From IMG/VR virus record IMGVR_UViG_2740892233_000024: 24,564 nucleotides of DNA, one strand, 5' to 3'. Origin of the DNA: a virus (taxonomy: Duplodnaviria > Heunggongvirae > Uroviricota > Caudoviricetes). Shown piece by piece: positions 18,001 to 24,000 of this stretch. The position numbers are program-made. Positions within the stretch are counted from its first letter, which is position 1, and the number at the start of each line of letters is the position of its first letter.

Positions 18001-21000
18001 AACACAAATCACGGAATACAGATATCGTTCACCACAAAAATCACCGGGCGTGGTCAACAGTGGCTGACCAGAAAGCTGCTCGATAACGGAATGCTGAAAG
18101 TAACAGGGGAGGCTGCTTAATGGCTAACCTACGCAAAGAATCTCGCGGCAGAGAATGCCAGGTACGTATTTACGGCATATGCAATGGCAATCCTGAAACT
18201 ACAGTTCTGGCACATTACCGGATGGCTGGAATTTGCGGAACGGGAATGAAGCCTGACGACCTGATCGGCGCATGGGCTTGTAGCGCGTGTCACGATGAAA
18301 TCGACCGACGCACCCATAACCTCGACAACAAAGACGCCAGACTTTACCACCTCGAAGGCGTGATCAGGACGCAGGCGATACTGCTGAAGGAGGGGAAGAT
18401 TAAGTCATGAACGAATATCAGTTTGTGCTTCCATACCCGCCGTCGGTGAATACCTACTGGCGAAGACGGGGAAGCCAATACTACATCAGCGATAAAGGCC
18501 AGAAATACCGAAAAGACGTTCAGCAAATCATCCACCAACTCAAGTTAGATATTTTCACCAAATCACGACTCCGCATCAAAGTAATCGCAGACGTTCCAGA
18601 CTCCCGCCGCCGCGACCTAGATAACATCCTGAAGGGTTTACTCGACTCCCTTATCCATGCCGGATTTGCGGAAGACGACGAGCAATTCGATGACATTCGC
18701 GTAATTCGTGGTGTGAAAGTACCAGGCGGACGGCTTGGAATAAAAATCACCGAACTGGAGAACGCATGAACGCCACAATTCAAACGATACCAGAGCTTCT
18801 TATCCAGACACGAGGCAATCAGACCGAAGTGGCGAGGATGCTTTCCTGCGCAAGAGGAACAGTGCTCAAGTACAACCGAGACAGCAAAGGCGAGCGTCAT
18901 GTAATAGTTAACGGCGTCCTGATGGTCAAACAGGGCAAGAGGGGAAGACGATGAGACTCGAAAGCGTAGCTAAATTTCATTCGCCAAAAAGCCCGATGAT
19001 GAGCGACTCACTACTGGCCACAGTTTATTGGTTTTCGTAACTGAGTCATTTTATTATTTTATTGCAACTTTTAATCTTTTATAGTGCGAAATAAATGGAG
19101 CTGGCATTCATTTCGCACTTTATGTTTTTGTTGGACTTATGTTATTTTGATTGAATTCAATTCAGTTAAAAAAAGAAGGTGATTGCTCCATTTATAAATG
19201 AATAGTCATCCCCTGTCTTGAATTCTGATGTTACTTTATTAAATGCTAGTGTGAAGGCTACAGGTGCATACCCAATTGTTGCGCCAACTTGATATTCATC
19301 AACAGTTTTGTTTAGCGATACTGTTGTTTGTTTCGTCTGTATTGTTTTTCCTTCGAGAGTATAGTTGCGATTGACATCTCGTCTTTCCATACCTGCAAAA
19401 ATCTTGTATTTGAATCCGCTTGTATCGGACATATGCATTAAACCACGGGGAGCCAGCAGACCAAAGCCATTATCCGAATTGAAGGTTTTATCATTACCAA
19501 TGGCAATGGTTGCGCCATATGCTACATATTGAAATAAGTTTCCAGTAACAGCAGAAACTTCAGGGTATAATCCAACATTAGCACCTAAAATATCCATACT
19601 TGGTGTCATGGATAGCATCCCTTTTACAGTATAACCGTAGCGATTCTCTATTTGATCATCCCATGCATGATATTTTTCTGCCCCAATAATCTCATGAGCT
19701 TTATTTTGTACTTTCTGACCGCCTGCGTCGGGGCCAACAACACCTATGTCAGTACCTAATCGATAGCGAATCCAGTCATTCGCAAGGGAGTTCCATTCAA
19801 TACCAGTGTGAGTGTATGCACTAAAAGCTCTGTCTCCAGTTACAGCTGTGTTGTGTCTTTTATTACTGCCTGATGGAGAGTAAATATCTTGCGCAATATG
19901 GAGAGATAATTGGCTCGAGTCTGAGATATCGTGGCTATATCCCAGAAATAAGCCTTGTGAGTAATCATCTCTGTTTTCATGTTTATTGCCATAAATATCA
20001 TTAAGTATTGGTTGAAACTTCCCTGCATCATCATTTGCTAATGATAATGCAAGGCTGTTCGCGATAGCTGAACACGTGGTAAATGACAGAGCAATAAAGA
20101 CGCCAGCGATGACACTTTTTTTCATATGTTATTGTCTTCCTTTTTTTTGAATGGTGCGCGTATTTTACATACATGAGTTTGTAATACAAGGTGCGTAATC
20201 AATATGATGTTTTATAATTGCGTGAGACAATTGATTTATTCGTTTTTTATTGCGGTTTTTATTATCTTTTAATGTAATGGTGTTTTTATTAAGTGTGTTT
20301 GCGTGGTGTTTTATGTTTTTTATAATTTTTATTTTATTAAATTTAAAAGCATTAGTAATGGCTATTCTATATAGCAATATAAGAACTGTTACAAAAAAAG
20401 GGGGGGCAATTACAGGTAGTTATGGATGATGAGTGAAACAGATATTGGAGAACCGGGGAATGAATGATGTCTGAGTCTTATATATCAGAACTCCTTCGCT
20501 GTCGCTGGGGGCTCCTGTGCTTATGTCGTTTCCCCGATTCGGTTTTGAACGATTACCGAATGTTGAAGAATTATGCCAAAATATAGAAAGGATTTACTGC
20601 ATGAATACCCAATATTTACAGTATGTTCGTGAGCAACTTATGGCAGCTACTGCTGACTTGAACGGAGCAACGAAAGGCCAGCTCGAAGCCTGGCAGGAGC
20701 ATGCACAATTTGATACTGGTACATACAAACGAAAGAAGCCGCGCATTCTGGATGTGGTAACTGGCAAGATGATTACGCTGGATAATACGCCGACTTCCGG
20801 TAAGCAGTCGTACGCAAAAGGTTCATCCATTGCTTTGGTCAGCCCGGTTGAATTCTCAACCTCTTCATGGCGCCGCGCGGTTTTGTCTCTCGATGAACAT
20901 CAGAAAGCATGGTTGCTTTGGTGTTACAGCGAAAGCGTTCGATGGGGGCATCAGGTCACCATAACGCAATGGGCATGGAGCGAGTTTAAAGATTTGTTAA

Positions 21001-24000
21001 GTAACAGAAAAATTGCAGGTAAGACACTGGATCGCCTGAAGACGTTAATCTGGCTGGCTGCACAGGATGTGAAGAGCGAACTTGCAGGGCGTGAGGCCTA
21101 TGAATACCAGACACTGGCATCATTGGTGGGAGTGACAACAAAAAACTGGTCCGAGACATTTACTGAACGCTGGGTTGCAATGAAGCACATTTTTCTACAG
21201 CTTGATAGTGATGCTTTATTGCTTGTGACGAGAACACGTTCAAAACAAAAGGCAGCATTTTTACAGCAAAATATTGCAAAACTGGATTAAAAGCCATATA
21301 CTTCATGCAAATTTGGTATGTTGTAAAAAATGTATAAACCCGCTGCCGAGTGGGTTTTTTTTATGCCCTGAGTTGTACTTGTACGGTAAACATGCTGGCT
21401 GCTATGTAATAGAGTTTTTTTAGCCTGTAACCTCTTGACGGCATTGAATTGCTTTTGTTATGAGTTGTAAGCCAATGTTATCATCTTGTATTGGGGTGGT
21501 TATGAAGGATGGTGCGCTGCTCAGGAGTTCTTCACTTTTTATTGCCTACATGGGATGCCTTGGATGGGGGAGTGCTTATTTCTATGGATGGGGTACTTCT
21601 TTTTACTACGGCTTCCCATGGTGGATTGTAGGTGCAGGTGTTGATGATGTTGCCAGAAGTTTATTTTTTGCAGTTATCGTCATTGCTATATTTCTTATCG
21701 GTTGGGGTATTGGTGTTGTATTCTTTTTCGCAGTGAAAAGAAAACATTCTATGCAAGAGCTAAATGTATTTCGCCTTTATTTTGCTGTGGAATTATTGTT
21801 TGTGCCGGCAATTATTGAGTTTTCTATATTGAGACAGAAGATTCAGGTACCTCTTTTGCTACTGTCAGCAGCGATTGCGCTGGCGGTTACAATTTCGATA
21901 AGATCTTATGGGCGATTTTTATCGGTATCATGCTTCTATGATAAGCCATTTATAAAAAAACATTTTTTTGAGATTGTGATGATTGCTTTTGTGGCATATT
22001 TTTGGCTTTTTTCATTTCTGACAGGATATTACAAACCACAGTTTAAGAAAGAATATGAAATGATTAATTATAATGATGGTTGGTATTATGTTCTTGCTCG
22101 TTATGATAATTGTCTGGTTTTGTCTACTTCTTTCAATGCAGGTAGTAAAAGGTTTGTCATTTATCAATCAGCACAAGATAAGAATCTTCAGGTTGATATT
22201 GTAAGGACCAGAATTTAATTGGCTGCATAAATAATATTTTAAGTTGCAAGTTGGCTATTCGTAGGAATAGAACCTTAGGCATGCTGAATGCGTTTTCTGA
22301 ACATTGTTTTATAAACTGTGTCTGCTTGCTGTTGTGATCCTGCTTTTAGTGATGGTGATGATGGATTTCACCAGCAGGATAATGTTGGTACTGACTGATG
22401 GCGCTCTGGTCTGCGGCATTGTGGTATTGCTGTGGCCGATGATGAAAGAACAGAATGAATAATTCTTGACTTTTTTGTTTACTGTTTATTAAAAAATCAA
22501 CCGCATGGTGAATCCTCCTTGGAGGGGCTAAATGATCGAGTTTTAAGGGCACGTAGCGAGTTCTGTTTGATCATTGCAGAACTTAGCGGGAGGCGCCATG
22601 CGTACATCACTAGTGTTATTCCTTTTATCATTTTCCTTGTGAGTTCTGGCTGCGCATTGCGCAGCCTTTTTTTTATGACCTGCCACTGGCAGATGGTCAT
22701 CCTGTGATTTGATTCCGCTTCCGGCTTTTTAACTCTGTTCCTCTANNNNNNNNNNATTTCTGTTTTTCTCAAACTATCATCGTTATCCCTTTATTTTCGG
22801 CTGCGCATGGCGCGGCCTTTTTTTTACGACCAGCCACTGGCAGATGGTCATCCTGTGATTTGATTCCGCTTCCGGCTTTTTAACTCTGTTCCTCTACACG
22901 GGAGAAATTCGATGTCGATTAAACATTACGATGTTGTCAGGGCGGCGTCGCCGTCAGACCTTGCGGAAAAGCTGACACACAAACTGAAAGAGGGCTGGCA
23001 GCCATACGGCGGACCGGTTGCCATTACGCCGTACACACTGATGCAGGCGGTGGCTATTGAAGGAGAGCCACAGGTCGGCCCTTCATCTGAGCCGGATTGG
23101 TACTACGTCATCGTACTGGCCGGGCANNNNNNNNNNTGGGCTGTAGTCCCCGTGTGTCATTCAGGCTTCCGGACTACAGCCCACTCCATATCTGATTTAA
23201 TACACTATCCCGGCCGGGAGGAATAATGACATTTAAACATTATGATGTTGTCAGGGCGGCGTCGCCGTCAGACCTTGCGGAAAAGCTGACACACAANNNN
23301 NNNNNNATCCAATGCCATGGCTTACGGTGAAGGGCTTACGGTGAAGGGCTTCCGCTGCCGGATTCATACGATGCTCCGGATCCGCGCATTAAACAGCTGG
23401 CGCGCCGCAGTACAGTTACGCCGGGCGGGGCTGCCTGCAGATATAACGATATTATTCCGGCTGACCACTGTCTGCATGATGTGCAGGATATGAGTACGCT
23501 GAATCATCCGAGGGCTGACCTGAGCAAAGGGCAGTACGGCTGTGTCGGCCAGGGTTTACATATTGCCAAAAAACTGCTCCCGTATATCCCGAATAACGCG
23601 GGGATCCTGCTGGTACCATNNNNNNNNNNATGTTATTTCCTTCTATCATTTTCCTTGTGAGTTCTGGCTGCGCATGGCGCGGCCTTTTTTTTATGACCTG
23701 CCACTGGCAGATGGTCATCCTGTGATTTGATTCCGGTTCCGGCTTTTTAACTCTGTTCCTGTACACGGGAGAAATTCTATGTCGATTAATCGTTATGATA
23801 TTGGTTACAAGAAGTACCACGTATTGTGTTGAGATAGAAAGCATGGTGCCAGAGGTAAATGCAGCAGCATAATAAAAAAGAGCCAGCGCAGAAGAGAACG
23901 GGTAAAAGAGTCTGCGCTGGCGTGGGGATATTCCCCGTGGAGAAATGATATGTAACACACATCGGGAACCTTTCTATATAAACATTATCATTATTGTCAA

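What the first reader, a model, noticed from the sequence alone, without database searches (positions are those of the whole stretch)
20601..21365. Cysteine-poor candidate Q antiterminator with an adjacent tR'-like terminator
The 229-aa protein occupies the Q position and is followed about 50 nt later by a strong terminator (AACCCGC-TGCCGA-GTGGGTT plus T8), as in the pR'/qut/tR' arrangement. It lacks the Cys4 zinc motif of lambda and 82-type Q. If it is a Q, it is of a different structural class; otherwise it is an unrelated gene and the real late activator is unidentified.
Basis: inference. Interest (0 to 1): 0.45.

Follow-up and report, generated by a model that had tools for sequence, protein, structure and literature searches.

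The report
Phage 82-type Q antiterminator with late terminator
This is an ordinary, already described late-gene switch of a lambda-like prophage: a phage 82-family Q antiterminator (identical to that of phage 434), followed by its own promoter, pause signal and first terminator.

Summary
ORF 20601-21290 encodes a 229-aa protein with one cysteine, and a strong intrinsic terminator (21336-21362) lies 45 nt after its stop codon.

The novelty premise does not hold. The protein is a full-length member of Pfam PF06323, the Q82 family. It is 100% identical to the Q of phage 434 and 89% identical to the biochemically studied Q of phage 82. Q82 itself has no cysteine; only lambda Q carries the Cys4 zinc finger.

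The 3' end of the gene and the 45-nt gap contain an 82-type late promoter pR':
- -35 TTGCAA at 21274, a 17-bp spacer that holds the Q-binding element in phage 82, and -10 TATACT.
- Transcription start at an AAA run (21309).
- An extended -10-like sigma-dependent pause element, TGgTATGTT, at +6 to +14.
- An expected pause at +25/26.

This layout recurs in 20 distinct homologous loci from many enterobacterial genera. The hairpin starts at +28, giving a leader RNA of about 55 nt.

At least four more terminator-like sites lie before the holin gene, which fits a need for processive antitermination. No other intact Q is present; only a 29-aa lambda-Q remnant remains.

Verdict: already known, low interest.

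The parts
20588..20592 (+). Shine-Dalgarno-like AAGGA, 8 nt before the Q start codon
   Evidence: Read directly from the sequence. The same MNT... start is annotated for phage 82 Q and for 434 Q.
20601..21290 (+). Q gene, Q82 family (229 aa plus stop)
   Evidence: PF06323 at 306.8 bits, E 1e-91, covering profile positions 1-216 of 220. PHROG 304. 100% identical to phage 434 Q. 203/229 identical to phage 82 Q.
21274..21279 (+). pR' -35 hexamer TTGCAA, inside the last codons of Q
   Evidence: Promoter scan. Aligns with the 82 pR' -35. TTGC is invariant in 20/20 distinct loci.
21280..21296 (+). 17-bp spacer AACTGGATTAAAAGCCA, the expected position of the Q-binding element (QBE)
   Evidence: The 82 QBE lies between -35 and -10 (PMC4914094). 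The spacer differs at 2 of 17 positions from the 82-type sequence in L003. Q binding is inferred.
21297..21302 (+). pR' -10 hexamer TATACT
   Evidence: A-11 and T-7 are invariant in 20/20 loci.
21309..21311 (+). Inferred transcription start, the AAA run (+1 to +3)
   Evidence: Wild-type 82 pR' starts with AAA (PMC5001585). The AAA run aligns at the same distance from the -10. Inferred by homology, not mapped.
21314..21322 (+). Sigma70-dependent pause element: extended -10-like TGgTATGTT (+6 to +14)
   Evidence: In 82 pR' the -10-like element with an extended -10 lies at +9 to +14. G+7, T+9, A+10 and T+14 are invariant in 20/20 loci while +12 and +13 vary.
21333..21334 (+). Expected promoter-proximal pause site (+25/+26, T-A), where Q would load
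   Evidence: 82 pR' pauses at +25/26 with U at +25. T at +25 in 16/20 loci, including the window. Inferred.
21336..21362 (+). First late terminator (tR'-like): 9-bp stem, GCCG loop, T run (+28 to +54)
   Evidence: dG -12.5 kcal/mol, z -3.81. Annotated as a terminator in phage 434. Homologous hairpin at the same position in L005, L014, L016 and L019.
22648..22674 (+). Further terminator-like site in the late transcription unit (first of three repeated copies; the others start at 22799 and 23666)
   Evidence: dG -15.9 kcal/mol, z -3.57.
24035..24073 (+). Terminator-like hairpin just upstream of the holin gene
   Evidence: z -3.56. A terminator is annotated upstream of the holin in phage 434.
24101..24316 (+). 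P21-type holin S, the first lysis gene and the distal target of Q-dependent readthrough
   Evidence: PF04971, E 1e-32.
18951..19040 (+). 29-aa remnant of a lambda-type Q gene (the first 20 aa match lambda Q)
   Evidence: tblastn with lambda Q: 92% identity over 24 aa. Translation. The same remnant is annotated in phage 434.

Best explanation
The ORF is the late-gene activator Q of a lambdoid prophage and belongs to the phage 82 (Q82) family.

Proposed mechanism, by homology with phage 82:
1. Host sigma70 RNA polymerase starts constitutively at pR' (+1 = 21309). The -35 element and spacer overlap the end of the Q gene.
2. Sigma70 re-binds the extended -10-like element TGgTATGTT at +6 to +14, and the complex pauses near +25/26.
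3. Without Q, polymerase terminates at the hairpin and U tract at +28 to +54, giving an RNA of about 55 nt.
4. When Q has accumulated from the early rightward transcript, it binds the element in the promoter spacer and loads onto the paused complex, helped by NusA.
5. Q stays with the polymerase, which then ignores this terminator and the four or more downstream ones, and reaches the holin and other late genes.

Shown here: family membership, near-identity to Q82, identity to 434 Q, the conserved promoter and pause-element architecture, and the terminator.

Inferred: the start site, the pause position, Q binding and the antitermination activity.
For: Family and identity
- PF06323 at 306.8 bits, full length. 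PF06323 is the Q82 family (PMC9388147).
- 89% identity to phage 82 Q over all 229 aa.
- 100% identity to the Q of plaque-forming phage 434, which is annotated 'Q82-like' with a terminator immediately downstream. The 434 genome paper calls this gene the Q late activator (PMC9119081).

Promoter and pause element
- An E. coli prophage whose Q DNA is identical to phage 82 supplies the 82 pR' sequence. That sequence meets every published positional descriptor: initial AAA, extended -10, -10-like element at +9 to +14, GCC at +15-17, U at +25 (PMC5001585).
- The window aligns to it base for base from -35 to +26.
- Across 20 distinct loci with 59-89% Q identity, the -35, the -10 and G+7/T+9/A+10/T+14 are invariant, although this stretch is non-coding from -18 onwards.

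Terminator and context
- Terminator: dG -12.5 kcal/mol, z -3.81. It is conserved in four other genera with a variable loop.
- Gene context: NinH upstream and a P21-type holin downstream.
- Four more terminator-like sites lie before the holin.
- No other intact Q is present.

Structure
Against: - No experiment on this allele is available here. The start site, pause and readthrough are inferred by homology.
- The window/434 allele departs from the family at near-invariant positions. +15-17 is GTA instead of GCC, and A at +17 is unique among the 20 loci. Changing GCC shortens the 82 pause 2- to 5-fold (PMC5001585). G at +8 and C at -8 are also unique.
- The 434 GenBank record annotates the terminator but no pR' at this place.
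- Foldseek matches to Q proteins are not significant by E-value (0.2-0.5).
Confidence: 0.93

Rival explanations
1. The protein is a Q of a new structural class, or an unrelated gene sitting in the Q slot, with the true late activator elsewhere.
For: Only one cysteine and no Cys4 motif. No sequence match to any solved structure. No NCBIfam model matches.
Against: Full-length PF06323 match. 89% identity to Q82, which has 0 Cys. The zinc finger is specific to lambda Q. No Pfam match to the lambda-Q or Q21 families at E <= 1, which is expected for the third known family. No other intact Q in the window.
Confidence: 0.01
2. The hairpin at 21336 merely ends the early (pR/Q) transcript. The real late promoter and tR' would lie further downstream, for example near the promoter-like site at 21455-21484 or at the repeated terminators at 22648, 22799 and 23666.
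For: A TG-extended promoter-like site lies at 21455-21484, upstream of the 252-aa membrane-protein ORF, and strong terminators lie further downstream. The 434 record labels no pR' here.
Against: The conserved -35/-10/AAA/TGnTATnnT unit lies immediately upstream of the hairpin and matches published 82 pR' position for position. In the 82-type locus and 19 others the same unit directly follows Q, whatever lies downstream. Phage 21 likewise has its first terminator within about 50 nt of the pR' start.
Confidence: 0.04
3. The gene is an inactive relic of a cryptic prophage. It is intact in sequence but no longer used.
For: The window is a mosaic prophage with morons, a lambda-Q remnant and fragmented DUF1737 genes. 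The discriminator of the pause element is atypical.
Against: The ORF and the whole -35 to +57 stretch are 100% identical to viable phage 434, which has no other Q. The module is >=99% identical in about 620 complete E. coli genomes.
Confidence: 0.05

Closest known systems
Q of Escherichia phage 434 (OL657226.1, CPT_434_67) with its downstream terminator
   Same: The protein is 100% identical. The window from 18941 to 22745 (LpxR, YlcG, Q, pR', terminator, membrane protein, DUF3927) is 99.6% identical at the DNA level.
   Different: The upstream nin region differs: the window has an antirepressor, YbcO, RusA and NinH where 434 has NinG and NinI. The region between DUF3927 and the holin also differs.
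Q82 and pR'82 of phage 82 (X92588.1; Pfam PF06323 founder)
   Same: 89% protein identity. Same -35 TTGCAA, a 17-bp spacer with 15/17 identical, AAA start, extended -10-like pause element at +6 to +14, and T at +25.
   Different: +15-17 is GTA, not GCC. The -10-like element is TATGTT, not TATTTT. Similarity ends at about +26. The 82-type locus has its first terminator at about +48 to +85, whereas the window hairpin starts at +28. One Cys against none.
Q21 / pR'21 of phage 21 (Pfam PF06530)
   Same: Same gene position and logic. The first terminator also lies within about 50 nt of the start, giving a very short leader.
   Different: No sequence similarity (no PF06530 hit). The pause element is at +2 to +8, and the QBE is a direct repeat ATTGAGCA/AATGAGCA.
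Lambda Q / pR' / 6S RNA / tR' (Pfam PF03589)
   Different: No sequence similarity. Lambda Q has 7 Cys including a Cys4 zinc finger. Lambda pauses at +16/17 and terminates at +193.
AlpA of Pseudomonas aeruginosa (7xya/7xyb)
   Different: 9-13% identity. AlpA is a chromosomal regulator, not a lambdoid late-gene activator.

Membership tests
Q82 family of lambdoid Q antiterminators (Pfam PF06323) | Sequence matches the family profile above the curated threshold, over its full length | tested here: met
   306.8 bits against a cut-off of 25. Residues 4-219 cover profile positions 1-216 of 220. PHROG 304, E 2e-108.
Q82 family of lambdoid Q antiterminators (Pfam PF06323) | Clear homology to the biochemically characterised founder, phage 82 Q | tested here: met
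   203/229 identical with no gaps.
Q82 family of lambdoid Q antiterminators (Pfam PF06323) | Gene lies at the end of the nin region, upstream of the late promoter and the lysis cassette | tested here: met
   YbcO, RusA and NinH upstream; P21-type holin downstream.
Q82 family of lambdoid Q antiterminators (Pfam PF06323) | Cognate 82-type pR': QBE-bearing spacer between -35 and -10, AAA start, extended -10-like sigma-dependent pause element at +6 to +14 | tested here: met
   Base-for-base alignment with the 82-type locus. Conservation in 20 loci. Positional descriptors from PMC5001585 and PMC4914094.
Q82 family of lambdoid Q antiterminators (Pfam PF06323) | G/C-rich discriminator at +15-17 (GCC in 82), which supports the pause. 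This is typical of the family, not defining. | tested here: inconclusive
   The window has GTA. C at +17 is present in 19/20 loci, and the window is the exception. Viable phage 434 has the same sequence, so the deviation is tolerated. Pause strength is unknown.
Q82 family of lambdoid Q antiterminators (Pfam PF06323) | Intrinsic terminator downstream of the pause site, read through only with Q | tested here: met
   The hairpin and T run at +28 to +54 are present and conserved. Q-dependence of readthrough was not tested.
Q82 family of lambdoid Q antiterminators (Pfam PF06323) | Antitermination and antipausing activity, stimulated by NusA | not testable with these tools
   Needs in vitro transcription or a reporter assay.
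Lambda Q family (Pfam PF03589) | Profile match and a Cys4 zinc finger | tested here: not met
   No PF03589 hit at E <= 1. One Cys only.
Q21 family (Pfam PF06530, includes QuuD) | Profile match | tested here: not met
   No PF06530 hit at E <= 1. tblastn with Q21 finds nothing in the window.

The most novel reading that the evidence does not exclude
The pR'-tR' leader of about 55 nt (21309 to about 21362) should be made constitutively in lysogens. The module is >=99% identical in about 620 of 5,426 complete E. coli genomes, many of them O26, O103 or O145 STEC. This leader could have acquired a trans-acting small-RNA function, as the pR'-tR' by-product StxS has in Stx phages.

A related reading concerns the 'short-leader' variant. 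Its hairpin starts 3 nt after the pause site and its discriminator is atypical (GTA). It could be a natural test of how quickly a Q82-type factor makes polymerase terminator-resistant.
Probability: 0.08. Interest if true: 0.35.

Novelty: already known. Interest (0 to 1): 0.08.

Why it matters
It matters little as a discovery. The gene, its family and the terminator are already annotated in phage 434, and the mechanism was worked out on phage 82.

Three modest points of value remain:
- The 434-type allele can now be given a base-resolution pR'/QBE/pause-element/terminator annotation, which the GenBank record lacks.
- The comparison shows two leader classes in the Q82 family: a terminator at +28 versus one at about +45 to +60.
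- The family still has no experimental structure (no PDB sequence hit). This widespread allele is therefore a reasonable subject for testing whether Q82-type factors form a nozzle like Q21 and lambda Q.

Tried and rejected
- NCBIfam scan: no model matched.
- Sequence search of the PDB: only chance hits, E 0.12-0.4.
- tRNA scan: none in the window.
- Rfam at gathering thresholds: only the lambda cIII thermoregulator at 7717-7775, and nothing at the leader.
- I tried to take the 82 pR' sequence from papers. The figures and supplements of PMC5001585 and PMC4914094 are not held, and PMC3058920 is not held. I therefore recovered the sequence from an E. coli prophage whose Q DNA is identical to phage 82, and checked it against the positional descriptors in the text.
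- I checked whether Stx1a-converting phage Stx1a_10051, which matches much of the window, shares the Q module in its 18-27 kb region. Only DUF1737/esterase and holin fragments matched.
- Compensatory base changes in the terminator stem: none. The five short-leader copies are homologous and differ only by one G-C to G-U change and in the loop. The support is therefore conservation, not covariation.
- The CII site / paQ -35 annotated on the minus strand in phage 434 (TTGC-N6-TTGC, window 21266-21279) was noted but not pursued. Its partial conservation can be explained by the Q C-terminal codons.
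Full report
**Observation.** The ORF runs from ATG 20601 to TAA 21288-21290 and encodes 229 aa. An AAGGA Shine-Dalgarno lies 8 nt upstream. The protein has one cysteine (C108) and four histidines.

Forty-five nt after the stop codon there is a hairpin, AAACCCGCT-GCCG-AGTGGGTTT (21336-21357), whose 3' arm runs into a tract of eight T (21355-21362). Folded alone it gives -12.5 kcal/mol, z = -3.81, and none of 200 shuffles folds as well.

The T8 run includes the two or three T that pair in the stem.

**What the protein is.** It matches Pfam PF06323 (Phage_antiter_Q) over the whole profile at 306.8 bits, E 1e-91, and PHROG 304. No other Pfam family matches at E <= 1. PF06323 is the Q82 family, one of three recognised Q families alongside lambda Q (PF03589) and Q21 (PF06530) (PMC9388147 and PMC7171158).

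A tblastn search of phage records shows 100% identity to the Q of phage 434 (OL657226.1) and 88.6% identity to the Q of phage 82 (X92588.1). The pairwise alignment with Q82 is 203/229 identical without gaps. Q82 has no cysteine at all; the window's C108 is Ser in Q82. Lambda Q has seven cysteines and Q21 has three.

The 434 record annotates this gene as 'Q82-like transcriptional activator/anti-terminator' with a terminator immediately downstream. [quoted passage not shown]

The same 1.1 kb is >=99% identical in about 620 of 5,426 complete E. coli genomes.

**The promoter and pause element.** The phage 82 record ends at the Q stop codon. I therefore took the downstream sequence from an E. coli prophage whose rusA-ylcG-Q DNA is 100% identical to phage 82.

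That sequence reads TTGCAA-17 bp-TATATT-TCATAT-AAATCTGATATTTTGCCAATGTTGTA. It satisfies every positional statement in PMC5001585:
- the wild-type transcript starts with AAA;
- there is an extended -10;
- the -10-like element is at +9 to +14;
- +15-17 is GCC;
- an AT-rich stretch runs from +18 to +25;
- U is at +25, where polymerase pauses.

The window aligns base for base from -35 to +26:

| Element | Window sequence and coordinates |
|---|---|
| -35 | TTGCAA, 21274-21279 |
| Spacer | AACTGGATTAAAAGCCA, 17 bp, 15/17 identical to the 82-type spacer |
| -10 | TATACT, 21297-21302 |
| Start (+1 to +3) | AAA, 21309-21311 |
| Extended -10 TG | +6/+7 |
| -10-like element | TATGTT, +9 to +14 |
| +25 | T, 21333 |

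According to PMC4914094, the Q82-binding element lies between -35 and -10.

**Comparative support.** A scan of one genome per species found 20 further loci encoding 59-73% identical proteins, in Citrobacter, Superficieibacter, Raoultella, Klebsiella, Scandinavium, Franconibacter, Enterobacter, Leclercia and others.

All of them carry the same unit directly after Q. Among 20 distinct sequences the following are invariant: TTGC of the -35, A-11 and T-7 of the -10, T+4, G+7, T+9, A+10 and T+14. Positions +12 and +13 vary freely. This is the TATnnT pattern expected of a sigma70 region-2 target. The stretch is non-coding from -18 onwards.

The window/434 allele is the only one with A at +17, G at +8 and C at -8. 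Its +15-17 is GTA rather than GCC.

**The terminator.** Similarity to phage 82 ends at about +26.
- The 82-type locus has its first terminator-like hairpin at about +48 to +85.
- The window hairpin begins at +28.
- The same 'short-leader' hairpin (AACCCGC...GCGGGTT plus a T run) occurs at +28/29 in four other loci. The stem is conserved and the loops differ.
- A phage with only a 33% identical Q (Flotzy) also matches this leader at 79% identity.
- Phage 21 is annotated with its first terminator at +3 to +50, so a very short leader is a known arrangement.

Without Q, the expected product is an RNA of about 55 nt.

**Context.**
- Upstream are an antirepressor, YbcO, RusA and NinH. Next comes a 29-aa remnant of a lambda-type Q (18951-19040), then an LpxR gene on the opposite strand and a YlcG-like ORF.
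- Downstream are a 252-aa membrane protein, a DUF3927 protein, fragmented DUF1737 genes, and three repeated strong terminators (starting at 22648, 22799 and 23666).
- A further hairpin starts at 24035, and the P21-type holin starts at 24101.

Reaching the lysis genes from 21309 therefore requires reading through at least five terminator-like sites. That is the task of a processive antiterminator.

tblastn with lambda Q and Q21 finds no other intact Q in the window.

**Structure.** An AlphaFold2 model was built on 117 family members with 22-88% identity (pLDDT 80.7, pTM 0.70). It is helical from residue 82 onwards and has a poorly ordered N-terminal part.

- Foldseek's top three hits are also AlpA and lambda Q, but at non-significant E-values.

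This reproduces what Wen et al. already inferred from AlphaFold models: 82Q, lambda Q and AlpA have similar architectures, with a zinc finger inserted only in lambda Q (PMC9371919). So the protein is neither a new structural class nor expected to have a Cys4 motif.

**Verdict.** The premise that made the finding look unusual is wrong, because the protein is the 82 type itself. The feature is already known, and interest is low.

**The residual open point.** The ~55-nt leader might have a function of its own, as shown for StxS (PMC7547250). The short-leader variant with an atypical discriminator might also behave differently in pausing and Q loading. Neither question can be tested here.

Noticed in passing
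window 18951-19040 (+): A 29-aa ORF whose first 20 residues are those of lambda Q, starting at the NinH stop (ATGA overlap). It is the scar of a lambda-type Q gene displaced by the LpxR-YlcG-Q82-type module. The same remnant is annotated in phage 434.
   Followed up: partly
window 19166-20125 (-): An LpxR-family lipid A deacylase gene (PF09982, E 7e-40) sits on the opposite strand between the nin genes and Q, as a moron. It is shared with phage 434.
   Followed up: partly
window 22648-22785, 22799-22936, 23666-23803: Three copies of a 138-nt repeat (77-93% identical). Each begins with a strong terminator, GGCTGCGCATKGCGCRGCC plus T8, and leads into a DUF1737 (nanS-p-like) gene start. Two DUF1737 starts are themselves duplicated (22912 and 23226).
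   Followed up: partly
window 3000, 3388, 5834, 6182, 17330, 22746, 23127, 23297, 23620: Nine runs of exactly 10 N are scattered through the window. Four of them lie in the region between Q and the holin, so gene content there (esterase fragments) cannot be read with confidence.
   Followed up: no
window 21266-21279 (- strand): A perfect TTGC-N6-TTGC (CII-box consensus) on the minus strand overlaps the pR' -35. Phage 434 annotators call it a CII site / paQ -35. It recurs in about half of the homologous loci, but it lies in the last Q codons, so the conservation may be due to coding.
   Followed up: partly
window 21455-21484 (+) and ORF 21460-22218: A TG-extended promoter-like site lies just upstream of a 252-aa multi-pass membrane-protein ORF that has no Pfam match. 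It could give Q-independent (lysogenic) expression of this moron.
   Followed up: no
L003-L023, positions about +14 to +40 of the leaders: Long-leader members of the Q82 family fall into two conserved early-transcribed types: TGCCAnTGTTGTATGCAnTGGCA and GTCGCCATAGnTTnGATTGTCGAC. Both can form small hairpins between the pause site and the terminator. Their role is unknown.
   Followed up: no
window 7717-7775 (-): Rfam Lambda_thermo (the cIII thermoregulator element) at 88.5 bits. This confirms a lambda-like left operon in this prophage.
   Followed up: no
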